Positions 11,042 to 60,200 of a stretch of DNA of 64,000 nucleotides are shown here, piece by piece (the first letter of the stretch is position 1; every line of letters begins with the position of its first letter). The DNA comes from Candidatus Falkowbacteria bacterium (lineage in GTDB: Bacteria; Patescibacteriota; Patescibacteriia; JACRDY01). The notes beneath the pieces are model-generated. The model saw nothing but the letters and a program-made list of their open reading frames with translations. It ran no database searches and had not been told where the DNA came from. Position numbers and translations under genes: made by a program. Location: NCBI GenBank assembly GCA_016218485.1, contig JACRDY010000059.1, positions 11,529-75,528 on the forward strand, given 5' to 3'.

Positions 11042-11587
11042 TCAGATTTTTTTTACTTGCAGGAAATCCAGCTCCACCGGTGTCTCGCGGCCGAACATAG
11101 AGACGAGCGCCTTGATCTTGCCGCGGGTTTCATCAATCTCGGAAATTTTTCCTTCAAAGTTTTTGAACGGGCCGTCCACGATGCGGATGGGCTGGCCGAT
11201 AGAGAGGTCAATGGTGTAGGTTGGCTCTTCCACGCCCTTGCGTTTCATGATAGCTTCCACTTCTTTTTTGGACATGGGCGTCGGCACCGTGCCGGAGCTG
11301 GTGAAGCCGGTGACGTTGGGGGTATTGCGCACCACGTACCAGGAATCATCAGTGACGGTCATTTCCACCATGATGTAGCCGGGGAAGATTTTTTCCTCAA
11401 TGACTTTCCGTTTACCATTTTTGATTTTGATCTTTCGCTCAGTCGGAATAACCACGTTAAAAATTTTGTCGTCCATACCCATGGAGACAATTCTGGACTT
11501 GAGGTCTTCCACCACTTTTTCCTCATAGCCGGAGTAGGTGTGAATGACGTACCAGCGGCGGCCGAGCTGTAGTGTTTGTTTTGGCAT
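11042..11587 (-). CDS. nusG: transcription termination/antitermination factor NusG
   Basis: 181 aa; NGN domain plus KOW (GQPIRIVDGPFKNFEGKISEID). Confidence 0.92.
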   Translation of the reverse strand: MPKQTLQLGRRWYVIHTYSGYEEKVVEDLKSRIVSMGMDDKIFNVVIPTERKIKIKNGKRKVIEEKIFPGYIMVEMTVTDDSWYVVRNTPNVTGFTSSGTVPTPMSKKEVEAIMKRKGVEEPTYTIDLSIGQPIRIVDGPFKNFEGKISEIDETRGKIKALVSMFGRETPVELDFLQVKKI

Positions 11588-20400: not shown

Positions 20401-20419
20401 TGTAAGAAGGTAAATAAAA

Positions 20420-20462: not shown

Positions 20463-20470
20463 AATAAAAG

Positions 20471-22477: not shown

Positions 22478-22725
22478 TATCTAGTATCTAGTATCTGGTA
22501 TCTAGGGAAAAGTCACTGCTGTAAGTTAATTTTAGATATTCAACTTTAGATGCCGTCTATGAAAAAGCGCTGACGAGCAGCGTAGCCTTAAATCAGACGA
22601 GCAAAATATATCAGACTTTAGCAAAATAAGCAAGGTAAGTAGAGGAGGTGTCTCATAATCTAGGTGATTTTCCCAGATACCAGATACCAGATACCAGATA
22701 CTAGATACCAGATACTAAATACGGT
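22478..22725. repeat. ~250-bp element bounded by inverted tandem heptamer arrays (tatctag x4 ... ccagata x6)
   Basis: Read directly; MITE-like architecture. Confidence 0.6.
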
Positions 22726-22741
22726 ATACTGTAGGTAATTT

Positions 22742-35119: not shown

Positions 35120-35231
35120 AAAAACAAACCCGTTCGCAATAGCGGGAACGGATTTGTTTGACGGTTCCAGGTTTGACACTTGAATATTACCAGTATAACA
35201 AAGTATATTGTTGTGTCAATGGAATAGGTGT

Positions 35232-35300
35232 GGAGCTAAGGGGAATCGAACCCCTGTATTCAAGTGTCAGGCTGGAATACCGCCACCAGGCATAGCTCCA
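35232..35300 (-). tRNA. tRNA-like gene with canonical acceptor and T-arm but atypical D/anticodon region; anticodon unresolved (loop CCUGACA)
   Basis: Minus-strand RNA GGAGCUAUGCCUGGUGGCGGUAUUCCAGCCUGACACUUGAAUACAGGGGUUCGAUUCCCCUUAGCUCCA; 7/7 acceptor pairs; GGGGUUCGAUUCCCC T-arm; no CCA; anticodon stem needs a C-U mismatch or a 9-bp stem. Confidence 0.55.
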
Positions 35301-35381
35301 CACCCAAGGCGAGTGTACCAGAGGTAGTATTAAAAAAATCTAAACTATTTAATTAATTAAAATTTTTGCCTTACTGTTGAT

Positions 35382-38222: not shown

Positions 38223-38334
38223 TCCATCTTTTTGCTTTTTTAGGTTATCCACAGTTTAATCTTGATTTTTGATCAGAATAGTGTATTATTATTTTTAGGA
38301 TCTAAATAATAATTAATTTTTTAAGATCAAAAAT

Positions 38335-39414
38335 ATGGAGGAATTTAAATTAAAAGCATTCAAAGTCATCCAAAATGGTAGGCAATTTTACGTTTCAACC
38401 ATCACATGTGAGCAGCTACTCGACGAAGATACCTTTAGAACCGACATTTGGAAAGAGGAATTGAAAAATACTCCATCAAAACAAGGGTATCAACGAGAAC
38501 CATCTCAAAATCATGTTAATGGAGTTGTGAAGTATATGGCTGGTGATAATATATCAATTTTTCCCACCAGTATTTTGCTAAATTGCCGTTATAAAATACC
38601 TAGTCGCGAAAATGGCAGTATATTTGAGATAACTATTGATAGACCTCTATGGATCGTGGATGGTCAGCACCGAATTTATGGCATTAGAAAGGCCATTCAA
38701 GAGAAAGGTCTAAGAGAGTGGAAAGGATTTTCTGTGCCGGTAGTTATATTAGATGAATTTGATCAAGGTGAAGAATTAGCTCAATTTAAGGTTATTAATG
38801 AGAGTCAAAAGGGGATATCTACTGGTCTGTTGCAGTGGCAGATGTATCAACAGTATACTCGTGACCCTGAAATGAAGGATAAATATAAGAGTAAAATTTG
38901 GCAGGTCAAAGCTTTAATGGCTATGGATAAACTTAATGATGACGATAATAGCCCTTGGAAAAATCATATTCAACTGCCAAACGTGGAGAAACGCAGAGAT
39001 CATTCAATTAACCAAACTTCTTTTGTGACTTCTTTGAAGCCTTTATTTAAGGATGGTTTTCTAAGTAATTATAAACTAGATGATTCGGTTTTAGTCCTTA
39101 AGAATTATTGGAAAGCGGTCTCTGTATTGTTTCCTGAGGCAATGAAAGACCATAAGCATTATTTACTATTAAAAACCCCTGGTATTTTTCCATTACATCT
39201 ATTAGCTAACGAAATATTACCGCGTTGTAACAAAGATGTCAGTATAGAGAAGATATTGGAGTATTTAAAAGTTGTTTTTAAAGATCAAAAATATAGTAAC
39301 GAATTTTGGTCGAAAAAAGGCCGAGGAGCAGCTTTGTTAGGAAGTATGAAAGGATTTAAACGTTTAGCGGATGATTTGATCATGGATCTTCCAGAACAAA
39401 CCTTAACAAAATAA
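38335..39414 (+). CDS. DGQHR domain protein (DndB-like, ParB/Srx-fold)
   Basis: 359 aa; WIVDGQHRIYGI motif; ~36% GC against a ~55% background. Confidence 0.75.
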   Translation: MEEFKLKAFKVIQNGRQFYVSTITCEQLLDEDTFRTDIWKEELKNTPSKQGYQREPSQNHVNGVVKYMAGDNISIFPTSILLNCRYKIPSRENGSIFEITIDRPLWIVDGQHRIYGIRKAIQEKGLREWKGFSVPVVILDEFDQGEELAQFKVINESQKGISTGLLQWQMYQQYTRDPEMKDKYKSKIWQVKALMAMDKLNDDDNSPWKNHIQLPNVEKRRDHSINQTSFVTSLKPLFKDGFLSNYKLDDSVLVLKNYWKAVSVLFPEAMKDHKHYLLLKTPGIFPLHLLANEILPRCNKDVSIEKILEYLKVVFKDQKYSNEFWSKKGRGAALLGSMKGFKRLADDLIMDLPEQTLTK

Positions 39415-39424
39415 TTAAAATAAT

Positions 39425-39565
39425 ATGGCTAGAAAGATGACCAGTCCTCGAGTAGCTAAGATTGCCTCAAAGCAGTTAAAAAGCAAGACTGCTAATAAGG
39501 CGGCCAAGATGACTGCGGCCAGCGCTTTATCTCAGCGAGAAAAAAGTCGTCGTAAACGAAAGTAG
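39425..39565 (+). CDS. small lysine/alanine-rich basic protein (histone-H1-like composition), 46 aa
   Basis: MARKMTSPRVAKIASKQLKSKTANKAAKMTAASALSQREKSRRKRK translated by hand; 10 nt after the DGQHR gene; followed by a terminator; absent from the ORF track because it is under 60 aa. Confidence 0.45.
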   Translation: MARKMTSPRVAKIASKQLKSKTANKAAKMTAASALSQREKSRRKRK

Positions 39566-39574
39566 AGAATTCAT

Positions 39575-39610
39575 CTAAATCACCTCCGCCTCCCGCGGGG
39601 GTGTTTTTTT
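39575..39610. terminator. Hairpin (cctcccgcgggggtg) + T7, intrinsic terminator closing the DGQHR island
   Basis: Read directly. Confidence 0.6.
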
Positions 39611-39639
39611 AGTTTAGAAATATTTTAACTTTGGTATGG

Positions 39640-39830
39640 TAGGGTGTGTAATAGCCCGTTCCCCTCCTTTCCAAGGAGGGGCCAGGGGCGGTTGCCGGAG
39701 CCTTCGGTCTCTACCCAAGCTTTGTTCGCAGGCCACGGTAGCAGCCAATACCTCGGCAACCTCACCCGTCCTCCCCTTAGAAAGGGGAGGAACGGTCTAT
39801 TCCCGGTTGCCGGAGTTTAAATCCAATATA
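39640..39830. repeat. GC-rich mosaic repeat (cccctcctttccaaggagggg; ggttgccggagccttcggtc; cctccccttagaaaggggagg)
   Basis: Shares modules with 12790-12900. Confidence 0.7.
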
Positions 39831-39834
39831 TATG

Positions 39835-40233
39835 ACAAAAATTTACAACCGTCGTCAATTTAAACACTTGCGGCAAAAATTAAAGAGGGAATCAACCCCT
39901 TCGGAAGATAGGCTTTGAGGCGAAATTAACAACCGCCAATTAGGATTTAAGTTTCGCCGTCAGCACGGCATCGGTAAGTACATCGTTGATTTTTACTGTG
40001 CCGAACTACAATTGGTTATTGAGGTGGATGGCGACTCGCATACCGACCCCGATATTTACGCCGCTGACCGCATTCGTGATGCTGCATTAAGTGTTCAGGG
40101 TATAACGATTAAGCGGTATTACAGCAATGAAATTTTTAATAATTTAGAAGGTGTTATCTTGGATATTGAGGAAGTGTGTCGTGGGATAAAAAACAGCCGC
40201 CCGGGGGAGACCCGAGCGGAGCGGTGGCCATGA
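39835..40233 (+). pseudogene. DUF559 (Vsr-like endonuclease-fold) gene remnant: no ATG start and an in-frame TGA at the conserved Trp position
   Basis: Frame translates KIYNRRQFKHLRQKLKRESTPSEDRL*GEINNRQLGFKFRRQHGIGKYIVDFYCAELQLVIEVDGDSH..., matching the DUF559 consensus end to end; TGA at 39916-39918. Confidence 0.65.
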
Positions 40234-40256
40234 TGGTATAGCCGATGGTTTGGTAC

Positions 40257-40547
40257 CTACTCGCCGTAGGTACGGGTATACATCGCGAGCTGTTTGGCGA
40301 TGATCACGATCGGCTGACCCGGTTCGATGACGTAGGGTGGTCCACCCAAGCAGGATTTTCGTCCATTGATCATGAGTATTCCTTCTTGGGTTGAGATTGT
40401 TGTTCGCTGTACTGCCGGGCCGAGATCGTATTCGCCCGCCATGATCACATTCCAGGATTTGACGGGGTTGCCGTCAGCATCCAGTGCCCTCACATTTTTG
40501 ATTCGGCCATCGTGGCCGTGTCCAATGCTGGTTACCTTGCTGAGCAC
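40257..40547 (-). CDS. hypothetical small protein
   Basis: 96-aa ORF; weak DUF3892-like feel; not confidently assigned. Confidence 0.4.
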   Translation of the reverse strand: MLSKVTSIGHGHDGRIKNVRALDADGNPVKSWNVIMAGEYDLGPAVQRTTISTQEGILMINGRKSCLGGPPYVIEPGQPIVIIAKQLAMYTRTYGE

Positions 40548-40710
40548 CCTCCACCTCCTTGGATCTCGTCGTGTGAGTTTAAAGTATACGGTCAGTCACA
40601 AAAAGTCAAGTGAATCGTTCTATAGAGTAGTGGCGGATTTGGCCCCTTTGGTTTATAATTATACTGTTACTCTTTGGCAGCTCAATTAACTTATTCATAA
40701 AAAATGCAGT

Positions 40711-41748
40711 ATGAATAATTCTCCATTGTTTCCGCGTTTGTGGGAAAAATTTAAACAGCTGTTCGTGATTGTGGCTGTGGTGCTGGTGGTCGGCTCAATC
40801 GTGGTGTATTTTGGCGCCACTAGTCTGACGCGACTACGGTATGGCGGGATCAGCGCTAATGACGCGCCAAGTTACGGCGGCGCGTTCGGAGATTATGGCG
40901 TGGCGACCGGCCTGAGCGCGAGTGATTCTCGTGGCGTGTTTCAGACCAAAGTCGCGTATGAGGCGGATGACTCGGGCAACGGACTGGTGGCAGCGGCGCA
41001 GGCTCAGGAGGGTGAGCTGACTCAGAAGAAAATTATCCGCAATGGCGCGCTCGGTCTGTTCGTGGACAGTCCGGAGGAGTCAGCGCAGGCGATTGAGCGG
41101 GTGGCTCTGAGCGTGGACGGTTTTGTCCAGGATTCGAATATTAGCGAGCAGACGAATGGCAGCAAGTACGGGGAAGTGGTCATCCGGGTGCCGGCTGTTG
41201 AGTTTGATTCCGTTATGGAGCAAATCAAGGGCCTGGCTCGTGAAGTGGAATTTGAGCGCGAGAACGCGCAGGATGTGACGGAGCAGTTTGTCGACCTGGA
41301 CGCGCAGCTGCGCAATTATCGGGCGGAAGAGGGGCGCTATCTTAAATTCATGAATCAGGCGAAGAATATTGATGAGACGCTCAAAGTCGCCGAGCGGCTG
41401 AGCGTGGTCCGCGGGCAGATTGAGCGGATCGAGGGTCAGCTCAAGTTTCTGTCCCGGCAGGTTGATATGTCAGTCATCAGTGTCAGCCTGACATCGTATG
41501 ACGACGTTAAGGTCTTTGGCGTGCGCTGGCGGCCGTTGTATGAGCTCAAAAAAGCGGCGCGCGGTCTGTTTGAGGCGGGTCGGACGTATATCAACTTTGT
41601 TATCAAGTTGGTTGTCTATCTGCCGATCATTGTGCTCTGGGCGCTGACTATCCTTCTGGTTACCTGGGTCGTTTGGAAATTGTTGAAGTGGCTGCACCGG
41701 CGATTTTTGCAAGGGAAAAAATTGGATGATAGTTGGCCGCGGCAGTAA
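40711..41748 (+). CDS. DUF4349-like membrane-anchored protein (N-terminal TM, coiled-coil middle, C-terminal TM)
   Basis: 345 aa with that architecture. Confidence 0.6.
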   Translation: MNNSPLFPRLWEKFKQLFVIVAVVLVVGSIVVYFGATSLTRLRYGGISANDAPSYGGAFGDYGVATGLSASDSRGVFQTKVAYEADDSGNGLVAAAQAQEGELTQKKIIRNGALGLFVDSPEESAQAIERVALSVDGFVQDSNISEQTNGSKYGEVVIRVPAVEFDSVMEQIKGLAREVEFERENAQDVTEQFVDLDAQLRNYRAEEGRYLKFMNQAKNIDETLKVAERLSVVRGQIERIEGQLKFLSRQVDMSVISVSLTSYDDVKVFGVRWRPLYELKKAARGLFEAGRTYINFVIKLVVYLPIIVLWALTILLVTWVVWKLLKWLHRRFLQGKKLDDSWPRQ

Positions 41749-41794
41749 AAAAGAGTATAGTAAAGGGGTGCTATTTAGTGCCCCTTTTGGTAGT

Positions 41795-43411
41795 ATGTCA
41801 TTTTTTATTAAAAAAATTGGTCTTCATCAGCGGTATACTATTATTTTTGTTTTGTTAGGGATCGCTTCTTTTTTGGTTTTTAGTGTCCTGTCTGCCCGAC
41901 TGGCTTTCGTATCGGATGAATATGAGTTTATTTACGCTGCAGCGCAGGTACGCGATTGGGGTACACTTGTTCAGGTGCTAACCTCGAAAATTGGTGGCGA
42001 TTTTTATCGTCCAGTTTTGTATTTTTCTTTTATTATTGATTTTTGGGTTTATGGTTTGCAACCATTTGGTTATTATCTAACCAATAGTTTGTTAGCGGCG
42101 GTTAATGTGGTTTTAGTAGCGTTGATAGTTTTTACCGCTTTAGTTAATTACTTTTATAGTGATCCACGGGATCATGCTCGCAGTTTATTTCTTGCCCTTG
42201 TCTCTGGCGTGGTCTTTATGATTTTTCCGAATCATCATGAAGCCGTCACGTGGTTGGCCGCCAGAACGGATCTCTTAGCCGCTACGTGGTACTTTTTATC
42301 AGTTCTATTGTGGTTAAAATATTTAGCGGCCGAGAGGCGGGGTGGTCGGTATTTGACTGCAGGTTGTATTTTTGCCTTTCTAGCTTTTTTTACCAAAGAG
42401 ATGAGCGTTACCTTGGTACTCGCGCTGCCCATTATTTTTTTAGGGCATTTATTGTATATGCATCAGCGCCAGCAAAATTATAATTTTAAAAAATTGGTTG
42501 GTTTCTTGCCGCTTTTGGCGATATTTATTTTTTATTTGGTCTTCCGGCGGTATATCGTGGGGTATTGGTTCGGCGGGTATATGCTGAGTGGCAGTTCCGA
42601 GTTTCTTAAAATAGACATTCCGGCGGTTATCCGTTTGGTGTTGTCACCGGTGTCGATAGTTTTTTATTCACTGAATCATAGTTATTTTTTTCAGATAGTA
42701 TTGCCGCGTTGGGGCGGACCGTTTCGGGGGTTACCGTTTACCGATTATTTACAATATTTTAAATTTTTGTTTTATGGCGGTGGGGCAGTGTTCATATCGT
42801 TAACGGCGTTTTTTGCCTATTATCAGCAGCGAGTGCGTACCTGGTTACTGGGTGTCATGGTCGGCATACTCTGGGTTTATGTGACGATTCTGCCGATAGT
42901 TGGTTTACTAAAAACCGTTGGGTTGAATTTGGAATCAACGAGGTTTTTTTATTTACCCTCACTAGGAATTTGTTTTCTGTTGACGTTTAGTGTACTGTTT
43001 TGGCCAAAAATTATCCGTGGTATTATGGTGGTTGTCATGGTGTCTTTATTGTCAATTGTCTATTGGATAAATTATCAGCCGTGGTTGACTGCTTCCGTTT
43101 CCGCCAATTCAATTCAGCAAACCGTTACGCAATACGGTAGTGAGATCGTTTTCGACGATTGGGTGTATCTCGTGAATGTTCCCGATAATATCCATGGTGC
43201 CTATGTTTTTCGTCGGGGGTTGACTCAGATGTTCCAGCTCTTTCAGCCTCAGATTGATCGGCAGAAAATAATTATAACCGGCCGAGGCGTGGCAGGCATG
43301 GCCGCGCCAGACTGTTTATCATTGCTCAGCGATCAGTATTGGTTGATGAATACCGATCCTGAGAGCGGTATTGTTGATGGTTTGAGCAGAGCGGGAGCGG
43401 GGGGGGGGTAG
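41795..43411 (+). CDS. GT-C family glycosyltransferase (PMT/ArnT-like), interrupted at a G10 tract
   Basis: Many TM helices; GYYLTNSLLAAVNVVLVALIVF matches the GT39/83 N-terminal loop region; start inferred at MSFFIKK; stop immediately follows G10 at 43399-43408. Confidence 0.65.
   Translation: MSFFIKKIGLHQRYTIIFVLLGIASFLVFSVLSARLAFVSDEYEFIYAAAQVRDWGTLVQVLTSKIGGDFYRPVLYFSFIIDFWVYGLQPFGYYLTNSLLAAVNVVLVALIVFTALVNYFYSDPRDHARSLFLALVSGVVFMIFPNHHEAVTWLAARTDLLAATWYFLSVLLWLKYLAAERRGGRYLTAGCIFAFLAFFTKEMSVTLVLALPIIFLGHLLYMHQRQQNYNFKKLVGFLPLLAIFIFYLVFRRYIVGYWFGGYMLSGSSEFLKIDIPAVIRLVLSPVSIVFYSLNHSYFFQIVLPRWGGPFRGLPFTDYLQYFKFLFYGGGAVFISLTAFFAYYQQRVRTWLLGVMVGILWVYVTILPIVGLLKTVGLNLESTRFFYLPSLGICFLLTFSVLFWPKIIRGIMVVVMVSLLSIVYWINYQPWLTASVSANSIQQTVTQYGSEIVFDDWVYLVNVPDNIHGAYVFRRGLTQMFQLFQPQIDRQKIIITGRGVAGMAAPDCLSLLSDQYWLMNTDPESGIVDGLSRAGAGGG
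43399..43408. repeat. Homopolymeric G10 tract
   Basis: Read directly; removing one G fuses the 41726-43411 and 43419-43817 frames. Confidence 0.9.
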
Positions 43412-43418
43412 CCATGAT

Positions 43419-43817
43419 TTGGTCGATTGGGATTTGGCGGCGGGTGAAGTGATCGGCAACGATATTGCAGTGGTATCCACGGGGGTCTATCGGGTAACCG
43501 GGCCGCATCCTGAGATTGTTTTTAGAAATCTTGATTTAGATCCTGCTGGAATAAAAAATTTACAGTTGACGGTAATCCCTAAAAATAATTATCTTTGGCA
43601 GCCCTACCATGTCTACTGGACGACTAATAGGTATCCGGGTTATCATGAGTACCATCGTAATATTTGGGTCTTCCGTGACGTGTTGTCTCTGGATGCACAG
43701 AGTGAAAATTTCCAGATTCCAGTTTGTCGGTATCCCGCGTTTGTTTTTTCCGATAGTGTACAAGATATAAAATTGACATTACCATTTGTTATTGGTGAAG
43801 ATTTCAGTTTGCAATAA
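43419..43817 (+). CDS. probable C-terminal continuation of the GT-C glycosyltransferase (frame +1 after the G10 tract)
   Basis: Frame is open back through the poly-G; TTG start only; 132 aa. Confidence 0.45.
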   Translation: MVDWDLAAGEVIGNDIAVVSTGVYRVTGPHPEIVFRNLDLDPAGIKNLQLTVIPKNNYLWQPYHVYWTTNRYPGYHEYHRNIWVFRDVLSLDAQSENFQIPVCRYPAFVFSDSVQDIKLTLPFVIGEDFSLQ

Positions 43818-43823
43818 GTAGGT

Positions 43824-45383: not shown

Positions 45384-45397
45384 TGTATCGTATACTA

Positions 45398-45525
45398 AAA
45401 TTCAAAGTTCAAAATCCAAATGACAAATCAAGTTCAAAGCCTAAATGTCAAATCAACGCACCTTTTTGAACTTTGTCATTTGGCATTGATTTGAACTTTG
45501 GATTTTGAACTTTGAACTTATCGGG
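45398..45525. repeat. AT-rich gttcaaagt palindromic repeat
   Basis: Near-identical to 14325-14450. Confidence 0.75.
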
Positions 45526-48849: not shown

Positions 48850-48950
48850 ATTCCTGGAGTGACACAGCCTCTGGCTGTGTTATGTTATTCAGTAGAGCTT
48901 TCAGCATAACACAGCCAGAGGCTGTGTCACTCCTACTGTGTCACTCCTAC
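48850..48950. repeat. Palindromic repeat gagtgacacagcctctggctgtgttatg ... cataacacagccagaggctgtgtcactc
   Basis: Variants at 56566-56650 and 60112-60190, between paralogs of the Cys-rich array. Confidence 0.8.
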
Positions 48951-49007: not shown

Positions 49008-50018
49008 ATGGTTCAAAAAGTCCGCGTCGCCATTAACGGTTTCGGTCGCATTGGCCGGGCGGCATTTAAAATTGCTTTAGACAACAAGAAAGTGGAGGTG
49101 GTGGCGATTAATGATCTGGTGGCGCCGTCGGTGCTGGCGTATCTTTTAAAATATGATTCAGTCTACAATACGTACGATAAGAAAGTGACCGCTGACAGTA
49201 AACACGTCATCGTCAATGGCAAGAAGTATCCGGTGTTTCAGGAGCGCGAGCCAAAGAGATTGCCCTGGAAAAAGTTGGGAGTGGATGTGGTTTTGGAGTG
49301 CACCGGATTTTTTCTGGACACGGCCGGGGCCGGACAGCACCTGCGGGCGGGCGCCAAAAAAGTGGTCATCTCCGCACCGGGCAAAGACGATGTGGCCAAC
49401 ACGCACGTCTTCGGCACTCTAGAGACGCAGAAGCATGTTAAGCACGGCCAAGTGGTTTCCAACGCTTCCTGCACCACCAATTGCATCAGCCCGGTGATGC
49501 AAGTCTTGGCCACCGTGTTTGGGATTGAGAAAGCGATGATGACGACCGCGCACGCCTATACCGCGAGCCAGGGGCTGGTTGATGAACCAAACAGCAAGGA
49601 TATGCGTGAAGGCCGCGCGGCGGCAATGAACCTAGTACCCACCCACACCGGCGCGGCGGAGGCGACCGCCAAAGTGGTCCCGGCGCTGCAGGGAAAATTC
49701 ACCGGTATTTCCATCCGCGTGCCCGTGATCTGCGGTTCGTTGTCTGACGTCACCTGTGTTTTGAAAAAAAATGTGACGGCAGAACAGGTCAATAATGCGT
49801 TTCGCCGCGCTGCCAAGCAGCCGCTGTTCAAAAATATTCTGGAAGTTTCCGACGCACCATTAGTTTCCAGTGACATCATTGGCAATCCGCATTCGGCGAT
49901 CGTGGACACGACCTTTACCCGCGTGGTTGACGGTAACTTAGTGAAGGTTTTGGCCTGGTATGATAACGAGTGGGGGTACGCGCACCGGTTGGTGGAGATG
50001 GCGGTGGCAGTAAGTTAG
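49008..50018 (+). CDS. gap: glyceraldehyde-3-phosphate dehydrogenase
   Basis: 336 aa; NGFGRIGR and ASCTTNC active-site motifs. Confidence 0.95.
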   Translation: MVQKVRVAINGFGRIGRAAFKIALDNKKVEVVAINDLVAPSVLAYLLKYDSVYNTYDKKVTADSKHVIVNGKKYPVFQEREPKRLPWKKLGVDVVLECTGFFLDTAGAGQHLRAGAKKVVISAPGKDDVANTHVFGTLETQKHVKHGQVVSNASCTTNCISPVMQVLATVFGIEKAMMTTAHAYTASQGLVDEPNSKDMREGRAAAMNLVPTHTGAAEATAKVVPALQGKFTGISIRVPVICGSLSDVTCVLKKNVTAEQVNNAFRRAAKQPLFKNILEVSDAPLVSSDIIGNPHSAIVDTTFTRVVDGNLVKVLAWYDNEWGYAHRLVEMAVAVS

Positions 50019-50019
50019 T

Positions 50020-50125
50020 AATCAGTAATCAGTAATCAGTAATCAGTAATCAGTAATCAGTAATCAGTAATCAGTAATCAGTAATCAGTAACTAGTTACT
50101 AGTTACTGATTACCAGTTACTTTAT
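50020..50125. repeat. Tandem heptamer array (agtaatc)x10 followed by inverted (agttact)x3
   Basis: Read directly. Confidence 0.9.
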
Positions 50126-51237: not shown

Positions 51238-51339
51238 AAAAATTAGAAATTGGAGAAAAACCCTTTGAAATAAAAGGTTTTTTATTTGCCAAAATAGGGG
51301 ATTCTGGTATAGTTGATGAGGGAGAAATTCAGTATTTCC

Positions 51340-51440
51340 TGCGTTTTAGTTATTGGAAAGAGATTTAGTATATCGTATGTCGTATATGGTATGTGGGGAA
51401 ATTCCCCCATATACCATATACCACATACTATATTCCCCCC
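51340..51440. repeat. gtatatg-heptamer-based palindrome directly upstream of paralog 1
   Basis: tcgtatgtcgtatatggtatgtgggg / ccccatataccatataccacatac. Confidence 0.6.
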
Positions 51441-51441
51441 T

Positions 51442-53091
51442 ATGCTCAACTGCAAGAATTGTAATCAACCTTTCACCATCTACCCCGAAGACCAGGAAAT
51501 GTACGATAAGTTTGCCGTACCCGCGCCGCGGCGTTGTCCGCGTTGCCGGCTGATTCAGCGGCTGATGTTCCGGAACGCTCGGGCCCTGTATTACCGGAAG
51601 TGCGACCGCAGCGGCGAGACCATTTTGTCCAGCTATAATCCGAGTCAGCCGTTCCCGGTGTACAAGCCGGATATTTGGTGGAGTGACCAATGGGAAGCCA
51701 TGGATTACGCCCGGGATTATGATTTTGGCAAACCATTTTTTGCCCAATTCAAAGAGCTGAATGACGTGGTACCGCACTTCAGCCTCTTCGTCAGTAATGG
51801 CACGGTGGTGAATTGCGACTTTACCAACTGTATTGGTTTTTCCAAGAATTGTTATTTGACGTTTGAGACTGACTACGCGGAGGACAGCTATTACTCCAAC
51901 CTCTTGAAACGGAGCAAGGACATGGTGGACTGTTCTATTTGCTATGATGATGAATTTTGCTACCAGTGCGTTGATTGCCAGGCGTCGTACGGCTTGCGCT
52001 ATTGTCAAAATTGCACCGGTTGCCGGGACAGCTATTTCCTGTTTGATTGTAAATCGTGTAATGACTGCATCGGCTGTATCAACCAGCGCTATCAGAAATT
52101 CATGATTTTTAACGAGCAGTACAGTGAAGCAGAATATAACCAGAAAAAAGCCGCGCTGCGGCTGGATACCCGCTCGGGCGTCGCGGCGCTCGCTTCGCAG
52201 TGCCAGCAGTTTTTCGGGAAGCACCCGCACAAAAATTTGCAGTTTGAAAAGAACGTCAATAGTGTCGGTAACTATTTGTATAACTCCAAAAACGCATTCC
52301 AGTGCTTCGACTGCAGCGACCTGGAAGACTGCCGCTACTGCGCTAAGCTGTCAATCGGCGTCAAGTCGTGCATGGATTACAACTCGTGGGGCGACCGGGC
52401 GGAGCTCGTCTACAGCTGTTCGGATGTCGGCGGCGGCGTGTATAACCTGAAATTTTGCTGGGCGATTGATACCAAGACCTCAGACTGTGAATACTGCACG
52501 CAGTGTATTGCCTGCAAGGACTGCTTTGGCTGCAGCGGACTGCAAAAGAAGCAGTACTGCATTTTGAATAAACAGTATTCGGAAAAAGAGTATTTCGCGT
52601 TGAAAGAAAAAATTATTGCCAAAATGACAGCCGATGGAGAGTATGGTGAATTTTTTCCGGCAGAGCTGTGTCCGTTTGCCTATAATGAAACCATCGTGAT
52701 GGATTATTTCCCCCTAACCAAAGATGAAGCGTTGAAAGCCGGCTATCGCTGGTATGACCGGGAAAAGTCCAAGCAGCCTGCTGAAACTGAGGCGCCGGAT
52801 GCGATTGGCGAGGTGGCGGACGCCATCATTGGTAAGGTATTAGCCTGCCGTGATTGCCAGTCAAATTATAAGATTATTAAACAAGAATTAGATTTTTGCC
52901 GTCGGGCGAGCGCGCCGATTCCTAGCCAGTGTCCGGACTGCCGACATTTTGGCCGAATGAACAAGCGGATGCCGCTGAGTTTGATCACGGTCAAATGCGA
53001 TAAATGCGGCAATGACATGACGACCGGATATACTGCCGGGGCGGTGCAGAAGGTGTATTGCGAGGAATGTTATCAGAAGGAAATTTACTAG
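51442..53091 (+). CDS. Cys-rich multi-zinc-ribbon repeat protein, paralog 1 of 6 (unassigned family)
   Basis: N-terminal CxxC...CPRCR ribbon; two internal Cys-rich blocks each ending in YC(I/M)(L/F)N(K/E)QYSE.EY; GEYGEFFP...PFAYNET; C-terminal ribbons ending YCEECYQKEIY. Confidence 0.8.
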   Translation: MLNCKNCNQPFTIYPEDQEMYDKFAVPAPRRCPRCRLIQRLMFRNARALYYRKCDRSGETILSSYNPSQPFPVYKPDIWWSDQWEAMDYARDYDFGKPFFAQFKELNDVVPHFSLFVSNGTVVNCDFTNCIGFSKNCYLTFETDYAEDSYYSNLLKRSKDMVDCSICYDDEFCYQCVDCQASYGLRYCQNCTGCRDSYFLFDCKSCNDCIGCINQRYQKFMIFNEQYSEAEYNQKKAALRLDTRSGVAALASQCQQFFGKHPHKNLQFEKNVNSVGNYLYNSKNAFQCFDCSDLEDCRYCAKLSIGVKSCMDYNSWGDRAELVYSCSDVGGGVYNLKFCWAIDTKTSDCEYCTQCIACKDCFGCSGLQKKQYCILNKQYSEKEYFALKEKIIAKMTADGEYGEFFPAELCPFAYNETIVMDYFPLTKDEALKAGYRWYDREKSKQPAETEAPDAIGEVADAIIGKVLACRDCQSNYKIIKQELDFCRRASAPIPSQCPDCRHFGRMNKRMPLSLITVKCDKCGNDMTTGYTAGAVQKVYCEECYQKEIY

Positions 53092-53154
53092 CGCACAGCA
53101 CAGAGCTTATAGCACAAAGCTATGCGCTCTGAGCTCTGTGCTTTGAGCTACTTT
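53092..53154. repeat. Inter-paralog palindromic spacer (gcacagcacaaagc...gctctgagctctgtgctttgagc); same at 54841-54903 and 58418-58477
   Basis: Three near-identical copies read directly. Confidence 0.8.
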
Positions 53155-54840
53155 ATGCCAACCTGTAAACAATGCAATCAACCTTTCATCCTTGGCCAGA
53201 TCGGCACAGATATTTTGCGGCGGCTGGATGTACCTGAACCGTCAGTGTGTGATGTTTGCGCCGTGCGCCAGCTGATGGCCTTTCGGAACGAGCGGACTTT
53301 TTATTCCAGCCAGTGTCAGAAGTGTTCGAAAACCATTCTATCGATGTATCCGCCAGACACCGCGCTGAGCGTCTACTGTCGCGACTGCTGGTGGGGAGAT
53401 ACTTGGGACGGCACGCAGTTTGGCCGAGTGTATCGTGGGCCGGAAACATTTTTCCAAGAGCTAGCTGAACTGCAGAAAGTCGTGCCTCGGGAAGGATTGG
53501 TTAACCTGAACAGTCCGGATTGCGATTACTGCAACCACGTCCGTGATTGCAAGTCCTGCTATATGTGTTCGCTCTTGTCTGATCAGTGTGAAGAATGTTA
53601 CTACTGCTACTGGATTGTCACGGTGAAGGATTCAGCGGCCTGTTACTATGGGCGCAATAACCAGCGCTGTTACTTCTGTGTCGCCACGATCCAGAGCTAT
53701 GGCTGCTCGTATGTATTGGAATGTGAAAATTGTTTAGACTGCCACTATAGCTTTGATCTGCGAGGCTGTAAGAATTGCATGTTCAGCAGCAACTTACGCA
53801 ATCAGCAGTATGTTTTTGAGAATCAACAGTTGACCAAGACTGAATACGAAACGCGGGCCGCGGCAGTCAATCGGGGGAGCTGGCAGCAGTCACGAGACTC
53901 TGTGCAACGCTGGCATCAGCTGATTGACCAGGCGGTGAAGGCGTACTCATACCAGAGTAAATGTGAAAATTCTACCGGGGATAATATCCAGAGCAGCGTG
54001 AACACCCAGCTCGCCTATAATAGTTTTGAAGATGAAAACGCCTATAACGCCGCGAGCGTGATTTGTGCTAAGAATATTTTTAACGGTTTTGCCGTGGGCA
54101 GCCAGCCGACCGAATGGGCGAGTAATATCGCCGTCGTGAAGGGCGGCACGCAGATCGTCAGCTGTTTCAACACCGCGTACTCCAGCGATATTTATTTTTG
54201 TGAGAATCTAATTTCCTGCATGGACTGCATCGGCTGTATTGGCCTGCACAAAAAGAAGTACTGCATTCTGAATACACAGTATGAGGAAGAGGAGTATAAA
54301 AAAATCAAAGCCGAGCTACTCGGGTATTTGCGTCAGAGCGGCGCGCTGTCGGAATTTTTCCCAAAGTCATTTTCGCCATTTGCCTACAATGAAACCGCGG
54401 CGCAGGATTTTTATCCTTTGACGAAAGAACAAGCCGTTCAGCTGGACTATACTTGGAAGGATGAATTACCCGGGACTTTTGGCCATGAGACGCTGCCAGC
54501 CGATGGCGTGCCCGATCGGATTGCCGAGGTGAATGATGACATCTTACGGCAGACTCTAGCCTGTATTCACTGCGGCCGGAATTTCAAATTAATTAAACAA
54601 GAGCTGACACTTTATCGGTCGCTCGGCGTGCCGATCCCGCGCGAATGTTTTAATTGTACGTTGCGTCAGCGGCTGGACTTGATGGGGGAGCGTGATTTAC
54701 GGGAGCGGCAGTGTGATTGTACGCGAGCAGAACATCAGCAGCATCAGGGTAAAACATGCCAAAATAAGTTTTTGACGAAATATACCGCGAAAGATAAGAA
54801 GGTGTACTGCGAGGAGTGTTATCAGAAGGAAATTTACTAA
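53155..54840 (+). CDS. Cys-rich multi-zinc-ribbon repeat protein, paralog 2
   Basis: Same architecture; true start MPTCKQCNQPF (the ORF-track start lies in the inter-paralog palindrome). Confidence 0.8.
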   Translation: MPTCKQCNQPFILGQIGTDILRRLDVPEPSVCDVCAVRQLMAFRNERTFYSSQCQKCSKTILSMYPPDTALSVYCRDCWWGDTWDGTQFGRVYRGPETFFQELAELQKVVPREGLVNLNSPDCDYCNHVRDCKSCYMCSLLSDQCEECYYCYWIVTVKDSAACYYGRNNQRCYFCVATIQSYGCSYVLECENCLDCHYSFDLRGCKNCMFSSNLRNQQYVFENQQLTKTEYETRAAAVNRGSWQQSRDSVQRWHQLIDQAVKAYSYQSKCENSTGDNIQSSVNTQLAYNSFEDENAYNAASVICAKNIFNGFAVGSQPTEWASNIAVVKGGTQIVSCFNTAYSSDIYFCENLISCMDCIGCIGLHKKKYCILNTQYEEEEYKKIKAELLGYLRQSGALSEFFPKSFSPFAYNETAAQDFYPLTKEQAVQLDYTWKDELPGTFGHETLPADGVPDRIAEVNDDILRQTLACIHCGRNFKLIKQELTLYRSLGVPIPRECFNCTLRQRLDLMGERDLRERQCDCTRAEHQQHQGKTCQNKFLTKYTAKDKKVYCEECYQKEIY

Positions 54841-54903
54841 CACACAGCACAAAGCGCAGAGCACAAAGCTATGCGCTCTGAGCTCTGTGCTTTGAGCTAC
54901 TGT

Positions 54904-56565
54904 ATGCCAACCTGTAAAAACTGCACCACCGACTTCACCATCACCGACGCAGACAAAACGTTCTACGCCAAGATTGACGTACCCGAGCCGACGCGCTGCC
55001 CGCAGTGCCGGAAACAGCGGCGTTTGAGCTTCCGCAATGAGTCAAATTTTTATTTAACCAAATGTCAGCGGTGTCATAAAGAAACGGTTTCGGTGTATTC
55101 ACCGAATAAACCTTTGGTGGTGTATTGTAAAGACTGCTGGTGGGGTGAGGACTGGAATCCGTTGGATTACGGCCAAGAGTTTGATTGGCAGAAAAGTTTT
55201 ACCGAGCAGTTTAGAGATCTGATGGCGGTGGTGCCGCGGCCGGCGCTCTTGCATTCCGAGAGCGTGAACTGCGATTATAGCATGTTTTCGGCCAATAATA
55301 AGGACTGCTACATGCTGGTACAGTCCAGTAACTGCGAAGAATGCCACTACTGCTACTGGGTGCAGAAATGCCGTAATTGTTTGGATTCGGCGTTTTGTTT
55401 GGACTGCGAGCTGTGCTATCAAGTTGTCGGCGGGGAAAAGTGTTATAACTGTTTTTATTGTAACAATTGTTCCGGTTGCTTGGACAGTCGGTTTCTGCTT
55501 AATTGTCGTGGCTGCAAAAATTGCTTTGGCTGCGTTAATCTCAATAACGCGCAATATTGCATTTTTAATGAACAGAAAACGAAAACCGAGTATGAAACAT
55601 TTATTCAATCAGTAGATTTTATTTCATACCGACACTACCGAGAGTACCAGGAAAAGTTTTATCAGTTTTCTTTACAGCACCCGCGTCGTTTCGCTGAAAT
55701 TTATCAGGCGGATAATTCTACGGGTAATTATCTCAAACGGGTTAAAAACGTCACCATGATTTTTGACGGTTATGATATTGAAGACTGTAGCTACGGTCAG
55801 CACGTCTTGCGTGAGGTGAAAGATGTGATGGATGTCAGTAATGCCGCTCGTAAAGCAGAATTAGTCTATGAAAGTGTTCAGGCGGTATTGAACGTGTATC
55901 AGATTCGTTTTAGTTTATTCCCGCGTCAAGGCGCTTCATTTTTGGATTACTGCGATCATTGCGTCGGGGCTAAGAATTGTTTCGGCTGCATCGCGGTGCG
56001 GAATCAAAAGTATTGCATTTTGAATAAACAGTATAGTGAAAAAGAATATACCGTTGTGGTGCCGAAAATTATTAATCACCTCAAACAAACAGGGAAGTGG
56101 GGAGAATTTTTTGATCCGAGTCTGTCGGCGTTTGGCTATAACGAAACGAACGCCATGGAATTTTTCCCGTTGACGAAAAAAGCGGCAATGACTCAAGGGT
56201 TTAACTGGGAGGATAACACCGGCGGTACTTTCGGCCAGGAAACAATCAAGTGGGCAAACATGCCGGATCGTTTCAGCGACTATGCGGGCGACTTGAGCCG
56301 AGAAGTGTTGACGTGCTCTGACTGCCGGCGGAATTATAAGTTGGTGGCCGTAGAACTGGATTTTTATAAAAAATATAGCTTACCCATTCCGCGGCAGTGC
56401 CCGAAGTGTCGCCACCGCGAGCGCATCACCAGCCGGAATCCGGAACAGCTGTATCACCGTGCCTGTATGAACGCAGGGTGTAAGAATGAATTTGAAACCA
56501 CGTATTCACCCGCCCGACCGGAAAAAGTTTATTGTGAAGCGTGTTACCAGAAAGAGATTTATTAG
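54904..56565 (+). CDS. Cys-rich multi-zinc-ribbon repeat protein, paralog 3
   Basis: Same architecture; 5' ~100 nt near-identical to paralogs 5 and 6. Confidence 0.8.
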   Translation: MPTCKNCTTDFTITDADKTFYAKIDVPEPTRCPQCRKQRRLSFRNESNFYLTKCQRCHKETVSVYSPNKPLVVYCKDCWWGEDWNPLDYGQEFDWQKSFTEQFRDLMAVVPRPALLHSESVNCDYSMFSANNKDCYMLVQSSNCEECHYCYWVQKCRNCLDSAFCLDCELCYQVVGGEKCYNCFYCNNCSGCLDSRFLLNCRGCKNCFGCVNLNNAQYCIFNEQKTKTEYETFIQSVDFISYRHYREYQEKFYQFSLQHPRRFAEIYQADNSTGNYLKRVKNVTMIFDGYDIEDCSYGQHVLREVKDVMDVSNAARKAELVYESVQAVLNVYQIRFSLFPRQGASFLDYCDHCVGAKNCFGCIAVRNQKYCILNKQYSEKEYTVVVPKIINHLKQTGKWGEFFDPSLSAFGYNETNAMEFFPLTKKAAMTQGFNWEDNTGGTFGQETIKWANMPDRFSDYAGDLSREVLTCSDCRRNYKLVAVELDFYKKYSLPIPRQCPKCRHRERITSRNPEQLYHRACMNAGCKNEFETTYSPARPEKVYCEACYQKEIY

Positions 56566-56650
56566 GAACGACACGCCCTCTGGGCGTGTTATGTTTGTTA
56601 CGCGCTCTGTAACCATAACACAGCCAGAGGCTGTGTCGTTCCCTTGGAGG
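56566..56650. repeat. Inter-paralog gacacgccctctgggcgtgttatg...cataacacagccagaggctgtgtc palindrome
   Basis: Same family as 48850-48950 and 60112-60190. Confidence 0.8.
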
Positions 56651-56695
56651 AACAATTTTTGACAAAATTTAAAATCCTGGCTATACTAAAGCATT

Positions 56696-58417: not shown

Positions 58418-58477
58418 TGCACAGCACAAAGCGCACAGCACAAAGCTATGCGCTCTGAGCTCTGTGCTTTGAGCTAT

Positions 58478-60109: not shown

Positions 60110-60111
60110 CA

Positions 60112-60190: not shown

Positions 60191-60200
60191 CGAACAGCAT

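What the first reader, a model, noticed from the sequence alone, without database searches (positions are those of the whole stretch)
39835..40233. DUF559 endonuclease-fold gene with an in-frame TGA at the conserved Trp and no ATG start
The frame starting at 39835 translates to a full-length DUF559 match (...TPSEDRL*GEINNRQLGFKFRRQHGIGKYIVDFYCAELQLVIEVDGDSH...). A TGA at 39916-39918 sits exactly where the family has a conserved Trp (..RLW..). All large housekeeping ORFs in the window (uvrA at 946 aa, purL at 1272 aa) read through with standard stops, so genome-wide UGA recoding is unlikely. This looks like a nonsense-mutated pseudogene, typical of decaying Vsr-like/DUF559 genes next to defence islands. 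Together with the DGQHR island and the mosaic repeat at 39640-39830, it marks a decayed accessory region.
Basis: partly seen in the sequence, partly recalled or inferred. Interest (0 to 1): 0.5.

Follow-up and report, generated by a model that had tools for sequence, protein, structure and literature searches.

The report
Stop-interrupted DUF559 nuclease gene
A small, horizontally acquired Vsr-like (DUF559) endonuclease gene in a Patescibacteria genome is cut by one TGA exactly at its conserved tryptophan; it is most likely a recently inactivated selfish gene, but the host almost never uses TGA as a stop, so a small chance remains that the codon is read as tryptophan.

Summary
Window 39832-40233 (+) is a full-length DUF559 / Vsr-like gene (Pfam E=7e-28). 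An in-frame TGA at 39916-18 sits on the near-invariant Trp29. The TGA is reproduced in an independently assembled contig.

The host is a Patescibacterium. The gene is compositionally foreign and lies in a variable slot between uvrA and uvrC.

New context: only 1 of about 42-51 native genes ends in TGA (nusG), and none of 256 Trp codons is TGA. Close relatives L002 and L003 use TGA stops normally. Published RF2-positive Patescibacteria go as low as about 4% UGA stops, so this does not prove recoding. UGA-to-Trp is now known elsewhere in the phylum.

The closest relative of this gene is itself broken by a TAA, so nonsense decay recurs in the subclade.

Verdict: most likely a recent TGG-to-TGA nonsense allele (about 0.6). 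Minority readings are Trp readthrough in a TGA-poor host, or import from a table-4 donor. This is ordinary, with an interesting caveat.

The parts
39832..40233 (+). DUF559 / Vsr-like PD-(D/E)XK endonuclease gene: 133 codons plus a terminal TGA, interrupted at codon 29.
   Evidence: Pfam PF04480 E=7.3e-28. NCBIfam DUF559 E=7e-19. PDB 3HRL E=3.5e-15. AF2 model pLDDT 86.5, matching 3HRL and 3R3P by Foldseek.
39832..39834 (+).
   Evidence: It is in frame directly before 39835. Homologues start with the same MTKI(Y/F)N.
39916..39918 (+). In-frame TGA at the position of the near-invariant Trp29; the context is CUU UGA G.
   Evidence: The identical base is present in the independent Logan contig L162.
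39919..39958 (+). RNA stem-loop that begins at the first base after the UGA (GGCGAAAUU...AGUUUCGCC).
   Evidence: MFE -16.7 kcal/mol, z=-3.2, 0 of 200 shuffles as good. It is absent in 7 homologues, but a weaker counterpart exists in the closest one, L172, which has TGG. No Rfam or SECIS match. Its significance is uncertain.
40231..40233 (+). Terminal stop of the ORF, also TGA; the next in-frame TAA/TAG is at 40267-40269.
40197..40219 (-). Intrinsic-terminator-like hairpin of the convergent ORF. Its complement encodes the non-conserved C-terminal tail of the DUF559 ORF.
   Evidence: The tail is not conserved in homologues.
39650..39801 (.). Composite GC-rich palindrome (two 48-nt arms, each holding a CCYCC..GGRGG hairpin) upstream of the gene. 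It belongs to a dispersed intergenic repeat family.
   Evidence: inverted repeats I1, I7, I17. Partial copies at 12795-12875, 13128-13170 and 2749-2787. Alignment A2.
39804..39815 (+). CGGTTGCCGGAG leader motif 17 nt before the ATG. The 11-mer GGTTGCCGGAG also occurs at 39690, 12846, 19933 and 2767(-).
   Evidence: Related leaders GTTGCCGRAGTT precede the ATG in L164, L165 and L171.
38335..39414 (+). Solitary DGQHR-domain (DndB/DpdB-like) gene. It is very AT-rich (GC3 0.30) and foreign to the host.
   Evidence: Pfam DndB 7.9e-17. TIGR03187 DGQHR 116.7 bits, but DpdB 79 bits against a cut-off of 300. GC3 z=-5.1.
39425..39603 (+). 46-aa Lys-rich ORF (39425-39565) followed by a terminator-like hairpin (39581-39603). 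This closes the DGQHR transcription unit upstream of the DUF559 gene.
   Evidence: The ORF was called as a gene on Logan contig L001.
40257..40547 (-). Convergent 96-aa ORF of unknown family, with host-like composition, its own promoter-like site (40685-40658) and a terminator (40219-40197).
   Evidence: No Pfam, PADLOC or NCBIfam hit.
11042..11044 (-). Context: the only TGA stop among the native genes of the window (nusG, 11042-11587).
   Evidence: The protein ends exactly at the end of the TIGR00922 NusG profile.

Best explanation
This is a horizontally acquired, free-standing DUF559 (Vsr-like PD-(D/E)XK) endonuclease gene. It sits in the variable uvrA-uvrC slot of a standard-code Patescibacterium and carries a recent single-base nonsense mutation, TGG to TGA at Trp29.

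Termination at codon 29 would give a 28-residue peptide lacking the whole catalytic core (D53, E64, D66, H70), and no usable restart codon exists before TTG at 40012. The allele is therefore null or nearly so. At most, the low-level near-cognate reading of UGA by tRNA-Trp that is known in bacteria would yield traces of wild-type protein.

Shown: family membership, the position of the stop, the foreign composition, the variable slot, the absence of TGA-Trp codons in host genes, and independent nonsense decay in the closest relative. Inferred: that the mutation arose in situ, that RF2 is present, and that the product is not made in useful amounts.
For: (1) Family and position.
(2) The host does not use UGA as a sense codon. 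There are 0 in-frame TGA against 256 TGG in 16,985 codons of 42 confirmed genes (genes verified), and none in the short genes either.
(3) UGA is used as a stop at the natural C-terminus of nusG.
(4) Low UGA-stop usage is compatible with RF2 being present. Published standard-code, RF2-positive Patescibacteria have 3.9-27% UGA stops, and P(1 or fewer of 42 | 4%) = 0.50.
(5) The closest relative (L172, 64% identity) has an in-frame TAA at codon 3 and Cys replacing the invariant Arg42, while its Trp codon is TGG. So nonsense decay recurs independently in this subclade.
(6) The gene is foreign: core GC3 is 0.42 against 0.63 +/- 0.07 for the host, z=-3.2. It lies in an insert absent from relative L003, where uvrC follows uvrA within about 520 bp.
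(7) It lies behind a terminator, and the simple scan finds no plus-strand promoter-like site between 39604 and 39831.
(8) No gene was called over it on the Logan contig.
(9) TGG to TGA is a single transition.
Against: (a) Apart from the stop, the ORF is pristine: all 15 invariant and 12 of 13 near-invariant family residues are kept, with no frameshift. If it is a pseudogene, it is very young.
(b) A random nonsense mutation in this ORF would be TGG to TGA only 3-9% of the time (2 of 60 single-base paths).
(c) The host's TGA-stop usage (1/42) is significantly below that of its closest relatives L002+L003 (7/31; Fisher p=0.009). This leaves room for weak or absent RF2.
(d) A stable hairpin starts right after the UGA.
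(e) UGA-to-Trp lineages exist in this phylum.
(f) RF2 and tRNA-Trp could not be examined, because only the 64-kb window is available.
Confidence: 0.6

Rival explanations
1. Functional gene through UGA-to-Trp decoding in the host. In this reading the host (and perhaps L004's lineage) has nearly eliminated UGA stops because RF2 is weak or lost. UGA is then effectively unassigned or ambiguous and is read by tRNA-Trp, so codon 29 yields the wild-type Trp and a working, perhaps deliberately low-level, nuclease.
For: The TGA lies exactly at the conserved Trp and the ORF is otherwise intact. The window has 1 TGA stop in 42 genes and L004 has 0 in 20, against 15-35% in other Patescibacteria loci (Fisher p=0.003-0.009). 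TAG usage is unusually high at 38%. Table 4 has evolved at least twice within Patescibacteriota, with code-11 genomes nested inside code-4 lineages. The 'unassigned codon' and 'ambiguous intermediate' models predict such a state.
Against: None of 256 native Trp codons is TGA, whereas the reported table-4 Patescibacteria show 150-303 supporting Pfam columns. nusG ends on TGA at its natural end. RF2-positive relatives of the table-4 lineage reach about 4% UGA stops, so scarcity alone is not diagnostic. Reading UGA as sense would also extend this ORF past its own terminal TGA by 12 unconserved codons. No UCA-anticodon tRNA is in the window.
Confidence: 0.12
2. The gene was imported from a table-4 (UGA=Trp) Patescibacterium. 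TGA encoded Trp in the donor, and after transfer into a standard-code host the gene arrived already non-functional. No mutation in the host is then needed.
For: This explains, without coincidence, why the only defect is TGA at a Trp codon. The gene is compositionally foreign and unameliorated, with GC3 z=-3.2. Table-4 lineages exist in the same phylum. DUF559 genes have lower GC than their host locus in all four compared loci, as expected for mobile genes.
Against: All the nearest homologues examined (L172, L164, L168, L004) use TGG for this Trp and sit on contigs whose other genes are uninterrupted under the standard code. Known table-4 Patescibacteria are a tiny fraction of the phylum (22 genomes). 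The ORF ends on TGA, although that tail is host-derived terminator sequence.
Confidence: 0.12
3. Sequencing error or minority allele: the true or majority sequence is TGG and the gene is intact.
For: One base separates TGA from TGG. No read-level data are available.
Against: Two assemblies agree over 5,742 nt with 0 mismatches, including this base. Consensus errors at a non-homopolymer site are rare. However, both assemblies may derive from the same reads.
Confidence: 0.04
4. Programmed recoding at this site: selenocysteine insertion, hairpin-stimulated readthrough, or a prfB-like +1 frameshift at CUU UGA.
For: A stable stem-loop starts immediately 3' of the UGA (z=-3.2). The apical loop lies about 16 nt downstream and starts with G, which loosely resembles a bacterial SECIS (from my own knowledge of SECIS layout). 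CUU UGA is the slippery site of prfB (also from my own knowledge).
Against: No SECIS or other Rfam match even at E up to 10. Sec replacing a structural Trp in a nuclease has no precedent. The +1 frame gives 8 codons and then TAG, and the DUF559 domain continues in the 0 frame. A similarly shaped hairpin exists in L172 with TGG, so the stem did not arise together with the UGA.
Confidence: 0.03

Closest known systems
DUF559 family (Pfam PF04480); solved member NGO0050 of Neisseria gonorrhoeae, PDB 3HRL
   Same: Full-length HMM match and the same conserved motifs (LW, FRRQ, VDF, E-x-D-G-x-x-H). The predicted fold superposes on 3HRL (Foldseek E=7e-07, TM 0.83 normalised to the target).
   Different: The reading frame is interrupted by TGA at the conserved Trp. 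The C-terminal tail is translated terminator hairpin. Identity to any database protein is at most 57-64%.
E. coli Vsr (very-short-patch repair endonuclease, PDB 1VSR/1CW0) and Caulobacter VsrA (a DUF559 protein; PMC12907096)
   Same: Same PD-(D/E)XK/Vsr-like superfamily clade (PMC3424549). VsrA shows that a solitary DUF559 nuclease can damage host DNA when the cognate methylation is missing, which gives a rationale for selection to silence such a gene.
   Different: Structural similarity to Vsr is only weak (Foldseek E=0.09). No cytosine methyltransferase was found among the annotated genes of the window. T/G-mismatch activity was not tested.
I-Bth0305I, the EDxHD family homing endonuclease (PDB 3R3P)
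   Same: The catalytic-domain fold matches (Foldseek E=3e-04, TM 0.71 normalised to the target). It is a small, mobile-looking gene that is compositionally foreign and sits in variable intergenic space next to dispersed repeats.
   Different: It is free-standing, not inside a group I intron or intein. No target site or homing has been demonstrated.
Table-4 (UGA=Trp) Patescibacteriota: family JAKLIH01 and genus GCA-2747955, class Minisyncoccia (PMC13092985; bioRxiv 10.64898/2026.05.24.727570)
   Same: Same phylum. UGA at a conserved Trp, near-absence of UGA stops, and high reliance on UAA/UAG.
   Different: Those genomes have 150-303 Pfam columns with UGA=Trp and 0% UGA stops, lack prfB, and two of the four JAKLIH01 genomes carry a tRNA(UCA). 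Here 0 of 256 native Trp codons are TGA and nusG stops on TGA. prfB and tRNA-Trp status are unknown.
TGA-poor, RF2-positive standard-code Patescibacteria (for example JAVHQB01, 3.9-4.6% UGA stops; PMC13092985 Suppl. Table 2)
   Same: Very low UGA-stop usage with the standard code. This is the state the window most resembles.
   Different: Those genomes use UAA for about 72% of stops and UAG for about 24%. The window, at 51% GC, uses UAA for 60% and UAG for 38%.

Membership tests
DUF559 (PF04480) / Vsr-like PD-(D/E)XK endonucleases | Sequence match to the family HMM above the curated threshold, over the full domain. | tested here: met
   97.1 bits against a cut-off of 20.6, profile 4-108/109, E=7.3e-28 with W restored. 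The part downstream of the stop alone gives 79.4 bits.
DUF559 (PF04480) / Vsr-like PD-(D/E)XK endonucleases | Conserved core residues (FRRQ, VDF, E-x-D, H). | tested here: met
   All 15 invariant columns of a 30-sequence alignment are kept (L17 E25 F41 R42 R43 Q44 V52 D53 F54 C56 E64 D66 H70 D79 R95).
DUF559 (PF04480) / Vsr-like PD-(D/E)XK endonucleases | Vsr-like alpha/beta fold. | tested here: met
   AF2 pLDDT 86.5, pTM 0.78. Foldseek: 3HRL E=6.8e-07, 3R3P E=2.6e-04, 1VSR E=0.09.
DUF559 (PF04480) / Vsr-like PD-(D/E)XK endonucleases | Uninterrupted reading frame encoding the whole domain (a functional gene). | tested here: not met
   In-frame TGA at codon 29 under the standard code. The next possible start is TTG at 40012, downstream of D53.
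Canonical Vsr repair system (Vsr + Dcm) | Genetic linkage to a C5-cytosine methyltransferase. | tested here: not met
   No methyltransferase domain among the annotated ORFs of the locus or the rest of the window. A few ORFs have no Pfam hit.
Canonical Vsr repair system (Vsr + Dcm) | T/G-mismatch-specific nicking activity. | not testable with these tools
   This needs biochemistry.
Translation table 4 host (UGA=Trp) | UGA aligned to conserved Trp in many genes. | tested here: not met
   0 in-frame TGA against 256 TGG in 42 verified genes. The only case is the foreign DUF559 gene.
Translation table 4 host (UGA=Trp) | No UGA stop codons at gene ends. | tested here: inconclusive
   1 of 42 long genes (about 1 of 51 with short genes). 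The exception is nusG, ending at its natural C-terminus. This is compatible with about 4% UGA usage in RF2-positive genomes.
Translation table 4 host (UGA=Trp) | Loss of prfB (RF2). | not testable with these tools
   No release-factor gene lies in the 64-kb window.
Translation table 4 host (UGA=Trp) | [quoted passage not shown] | not testable with these tools
   The window holds only tRNA-Glu(UUC) and a tRNA-like element without a UCA anticodon. tRNA-Trp is not in the window.
Bacterial selenoprotein gene (UGA + SECIS) | SECIS hairpin 3' of the UGA, with Sec at a Cys-like redox site. | tested here: not met
   A hairpin is present but has no Rfam match at E up to 10. The codon replaces a structural Trp, and a similarly shaped hairpin exists in L172 with TGG.
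prfB-type programmed +1 frameshift | CUU UGA slippery site, with the functional product continuing in the +1 frame. | tested here: not met
   CUU UGA is present, but the +1 frame reads EAKLTTAN and then TAG. The DUF559 domain continues in the 0 frame.
   The DGQHR domain is met (TIGR03187 116.7 bits against 58.85). DpdB scores 79 bits against a cut-off of 300, and DGQHR_dnd_1 54.6 against 450. No Dnd or Dpd partners are found among the neighbours.
EDxHD homing endonucleases (I-Bth0305I type) | [quoted passage not shown] | tested here: not met
   The fold is similar, but the gene is free-standing in intergenic space and no intron family was detected.

The most novel reading that the evidence does not exclude
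The window's organism (possibly together with the L004 lineage) is a 51%-GC Patescibacterium in which UGA is almost extinct both as a stop and as a sense codon. That would be a natural 'unassigned or ambiguous codon' intermediate on the path to the UGA-to-Trp code recently found elsewhere in the phylum. The UGA in this newly acquired DUF559 gene would then be translated as Trp, making it one of the first sense UGAs captured in that genome.
Probability: 0.1. Interest if true: 0.65.

Novelty: new member of a known kind. Interest (0 to 1): 0.3.

Why it matters
As a broken copy of a common selfish nuclease gene, this is routine and mainly an annotation matter. It should be annotated as a pseudogene with an ATG start at 39832, not as a start-less fragment.

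The useful by-product is the context. This genome, and one relative, almost never end genes with TGA, while sister genomes do, and the phylum has just been shown to contain UGA-to-Trp lineages. If whole-genome data showed prfB loss or an altered tRNA-Trp here, this clade would be a rare mid-GC snapshot of a stop codon on its way to reassignment. Horizontally acquired genes such as this one would then be natural reporters of how UGA is read.

Tried and rejected
1. Full table-4 or table-25 recoding of the host: rejected. There is no in-frame TGA in about 51 native genes, and gap 'ORFs' read through TGA are repeat DNA, not proteins.
2. A suppressor tRNA in the window: the borderline tRNA hit at 35231-35299(-) has no UCA anticodon, looks like a minimal tRNA-like domain, and is absent from relatives.
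3. SECIS, Sec, or a known RNA element at the UGA: no match.
4. A +1 frameshift at CUU UGA: it leads to a dead-end frame.
5. Strain-level relatives for a TGG/TGA comparison or dN/dS: none were found. The best UvrA match is 78% in genomes and metagenomes, and the best DUF559 match is 64%, which is too divergent for dS.
6. Viral-contig scan for a baseline of broken DUF559 copies: only 4 distant loci.
7. Hairpins as a private regulatory element of DUF559: 8 of 8 loci have CCYCC..GGRGG hairpins upstream, but the same hairpins are general intergenic repeats in these genomes (15 clusters in the window). The association may simply reflect co-location in repeat-rich spacers.
8. TGA scarcity as proof of RF2 loss: rejected after finding published RF2-positive Patescibacteria at 3.9-4.6% UGA stops.
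9. Placing the clade relative to the table-4 lineages through paper supplements: the relatives' accessions are not listed there.

Full report
OBSERVATION

ATG at 39832-39834 directly precedes 39835 in frame and gives MTKIYN..., the same N-terminus as the homologues. So 'no ATG start' is wrong.

With Trp restored at codon 29, the 133-residue product matches Pfam DUF559 at E=7.3e-28 over profile positions 4-108 of 109. It matches NCBIfam's DUF559 model and PDB 3HRL at E=3.5e-15. An AlphaFold model (pLDDT 86.5) superposes on 3HRL (E=7e-07) and on the catalytic domain of the homing endonuclease I-Bth0305I (E=3e-04), and only weakly on E. coli Vsr.

In a 30-sequence alignment, the TGA at 39916-18 falls on a column that is Trp in at least 90% of sequences. 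All 15 invariant residues, including the catalytic-core D53, E64, D66 and H70, are retained.

The ORF's own stop (40231-33) is also TGA. Its last ~13 codons are the complement of a terminator hairpin (40219-40197) serving a convergent 96-aa ORF.

The TGA is reproduced in an independently assembled Logan contig from run SRR12113407, which is identical to the window over 5,742 nt.

ORGANISM AND LOCUS

UvrA is 78%, 75% and 71% identical to three uncultured genomes: L002 and L004, labelled 'Patescibacteria group bacterium', and L003, labelled an uncultured Gammaproteobacteria bacterium. It is 59% identical to a Falkowbacteria MAG.

The backbone is uvrB, uvrA, uvrC. In L003, uvrC follows uvrA after about 520 bp. 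In the window, 5.6 kb (38223-43823) is inserted. The insert holds:
- an AT-rich solitary DGQHR gene;
- a 46-aa ORF with a terminator;
- a composite GC-rich palindrome;
- the DUF559 gene;
- the convergent 96-aa ORF;
- a DUF4349 gene;
- two unknown genes.

The DUF559 core has GC3 of 0.42 against 0.63 +/- 0.07 for 37 backbone genes (z=-3.2), so it is foreign. The DGQHR gene passes only the domain-level model, not the DpdB or Dnd equivalogs, and has no partner genes nearby. 'Defence island' is therefore too strong.

L004 has an intact DUF559 homologue (52-55% identity, TGG at the Trp, TAG stop) 2 kb downstream of its uvrA, also directly behind a long palindrome.

STATUS OF TGA IN THIS GENOME

- Of 42 long, non-overlapping ORFs, nearly all confirmed by Pfam, 25 end in TAA, 16 in TAG and 1 in TGA, at 51% GC.
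- The plausible short genes also end in TAA or TAG.
- In 16,985 codons there are 256 TGG and no in-frame TGA, while TGA is abundant off-frame at 461 and 622.
- The single TGA stop, in nusG, lies exactly at the end of the NusG profile.
- Close relatives differ: L002 has 4/16 and L003 3/15 (including uvrC), but L004 has 0/14 to 0/20. Other Patescibacteria loci run at 15-35%.
- The window against L002+L003 gives Fisher p=0.009.

This pattern, with TGA nearly absent as both stop and sense codon and TAG unusually frequent, is what an RF2-poor or RF2-less genome would show.

LITERATURE CONTEXT

- UGA-to-Trp markers are many UGA codons at conserved Trp, prfB loss, and tRNA-Trp(UCA) (PMC13462651).
- In 2026 the first UGA-to-Trp lineages in Patescibacteriota were reported: JAKLIH01 and GCA-2747955 in class Minisyncoccia, with code-11 genomes nested among them.
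- Importantly, Supplementary Table 2 of PMC13092985 shows that standard-code relatives retaining RF2 have UGA-stop shares from 27% down to 3.9-4.6%.
- At 4%, seeing one or fewer in 42 has probability 0.50.

So TGA scarcity here is real and lineage-specific, but it is not evidence of recoding by itself. The first marker, UGA at conserved Trp in native genes, is clearly not met. prfB and tRNA-Trp cannot be examined from the window: its only tRNAs are tRNA-Glu and a tRNA-like element without a UCA anticodon.

DECAY IN THE SUBCLADE

The database protein most similar to the window's core, P0025 (91 aa), proved to be the tail of a broken gene. On L172 the gene reads ATG GGC TAA ATA TTT AAC, or 'MG*IFN...'. 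This is a TAA where the family has Lys3. It also has Cys at the invariant Arg42, and TGG at the Trp.

This relative is 64% identical to the window's protein, making it the closest found. TAA cannot be rescued as Trp, so premature stops arise independently and repeatedly in this subclade. That supports ordinary pseudogenisation.

Caulobacter VsrA, a DUF559 protein, damages host DNA when the matching methylation is absent (PMC12907096). This gives a plausible selective reason to silence an orphan copy. No methyltransferase was found in the window.

SIGNALS AROUND THE STOP

A 9-bp stem-loop starts at the first base after the UGA (-16.7 kcal/mol, z=-3.2). Seven TGG-bearing homologues lack anything comparable. 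However, L172, which has TGG, folds into a similarly shaped hairpin (-14.4 kcal/mol, z=-0.6), so the stem probably predates the mutation.

No SECIS or other Rfam family matches. The context CUU UGA is the prfB slippery site, but the +1 frame ends after 8 codons and the domain continues in frame 0. Programmed recoding is therefore unlikely.

WEIGHING THE READINGS

Against a simple accident: only 2 of 60 single-base nonsense paths in this ORF (3-9% after weighting transitions) give TGA at a Trp codon, and the gene shows no other damage.

Two rivals would remove that coincidence:
1. Trp decoding of UGA in a TGA-poor host.
2. Import from a table-4 Patescibacterium.

Against the first: 0 of 256 native Trp codons are TGA, and nusG stops on TGA. 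Against the second: all the nearest homologues use TGG and sit on standard-code contigs.

I put the in-situ nonsense allele at about 0.6, each of these two rivals at about 0.12, error or minor allele at about 0.04, and programmed recoding at about 0.03.

THE REPEAT

The 'mosaic repeat' (39650-39801) is a composite palindrome built from hairpin modules of the form CCYCC-TTWCCAA-GGRGG followed by GGTTGCCGGAG. The 11-mer occurs five times in the window, always in large intergenic gaps, and partial copies lie at 12795-12875, 13128-13170 and 2749-2787.

Eight of eight DUF559 loci from different organisms have such hairpins within about 60 nt upstream of the ATG, and four share the leader GTTGCCGRAGTT. 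But the hairpins are general intergenic repeats in these genomes. The link may only reflect small mobile genes settling in repeat-rich spacers.

No known RNA family matches, and I found no description of this association in the searchable literature.

VERDICT

There is one worthwhile caveat, the near-extinction of TGA stops in this genome within a phylum now known to reassign UGA, which whole-genome data could settle quickly.

Noticed in passing
window 35228-35302 (-): A 72-75 nt tRNA-like element between a DSP-phosphatase gene and uvrA. It has a 7-bp acceptor stem, a canonical T-arm (GGGGUUCGAUUCCCC), a 3-bp D-arm and a 9-bp 'anticodon' stem with loop CCUGACA (no U33, no UCA). Rfam tRNA gives 29.8 bits (gathering 29). 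The two ends of the tmRNA model match at E=1e-07, which is below gathering. ARAGORN does not call it. It folds as a cloverleaf with z=-4.2. The element and the phosphatase gene are both absent between uvrB and uvrA in all close relatives.
   Followed up: partly
whole window; L004: Near-absence of TGA stop codons: 1 of 42 long genes in the window and 0 of 20 in L004. TAG is unusually frequent (38%) at 51% GC. The closest relatives L002 and L003 use TGA in 20-33% of genes.
   Followed up: yes
window 2440-3014, 12711-13273, 19770-20470, 39640-39830 (also L004 14705-14796): Large intergenic gaps (450-775 nt) in an otherwise compact genome. They are composites of shared GC-rich hairpin modules, for example ..CCTCCTTACCAAGGAGG..GGTTGCCGGAG.. 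and ..CGAAGTAAGGGGAGGGACAGGGTGGGGTT. This is a dispersed REP/MITE-like family that is also present in relative L004. No Rfam match.
   Followed up: partly
L004, L164, L165, L168, L169, L170, L171, L172 and window 39650-39831: In every DUF559 locus examined (43-64% protein identity, different organisms), a CCYCC..GGRGG hairpin followed by an AGGAGG-like tract lies within about 60 nt upstream of the start, and often another lies just after the stop. Many database homologues carry N- or C-terminal tails (TPPTPSW, PLLERGG, LPLPGEGE) that are translations of such hairpins. It is unclear whether this is a functional link (target site or 5' leader) or co-location in repeat-rich spacers.
   Followed up: partly
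L172 60-443: The closest homologue of the window's DUF559 (64% identity, Logan SRR22388067) is itself a pseudogene: TAA at codon 3 and Cys at the invariant Arg42. The database 'protein' P0025 is only its C-terminal 91 residues.
   Followed up: yes
window 51313-61841 (+): Six tandem paralogous genes of 546-592 aa. They have repeated Cys-rich motifs (CxxC...WW) and a C-terminal treble-clef zinc-finger-like end (weak Pfam zf_Tbcl_2), and are separated by conserved palindromes (56565-56642, 60114-60191; also 48856-48933).
   Followed up: no
window 11846, 28771, 31128, 51177: Four copies of a 61-nt perfect or near-perfect palindrome (ATCCAGCACCTTYCAGAATAYCCC...GGGTATTCTGRAAGGTGCTGGAT) at gene ends. 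This is a second dispersed repeat family, possibly bidirectional terminators. L004's palindrome begins with a related CTCCAGCACC.
   Followed up: no
window 6403-6560, 9131-9182, 10393-10500, 10948-11055, 14326-14442, 45396-45513; 50003-50114; 22675-22730: AT-rich intergenic repeats (AAGTTGAAAGTTATAAAGTT-type, often palindromic) flank the rplA, rplK and nusG genes, and there are 7-mer microsatellites, (AGTAATC)n and (AGATACC)n. The nusG TGA stop lies inside one such repeat.
   Followed up: no
window 39913-39918: The sequence CUU UGA at the interrupted codon is identical to the prfB programmed +1 frameshift site (from my own knowledge). Here the +1 frame is a dead end after 8 codons, so this is coincidental: it arises from Leu28-Trp29.
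   Followed up: yes
window 9164-9508 (-): A free-standing gene for a '23S rRNA-intervening-sequence protein' (four-helix-bundle family, Pfam E=8e-34) next to the rplA-rplK-nusG-secE cluster. No rRNA is in the window.
   Followed up: no
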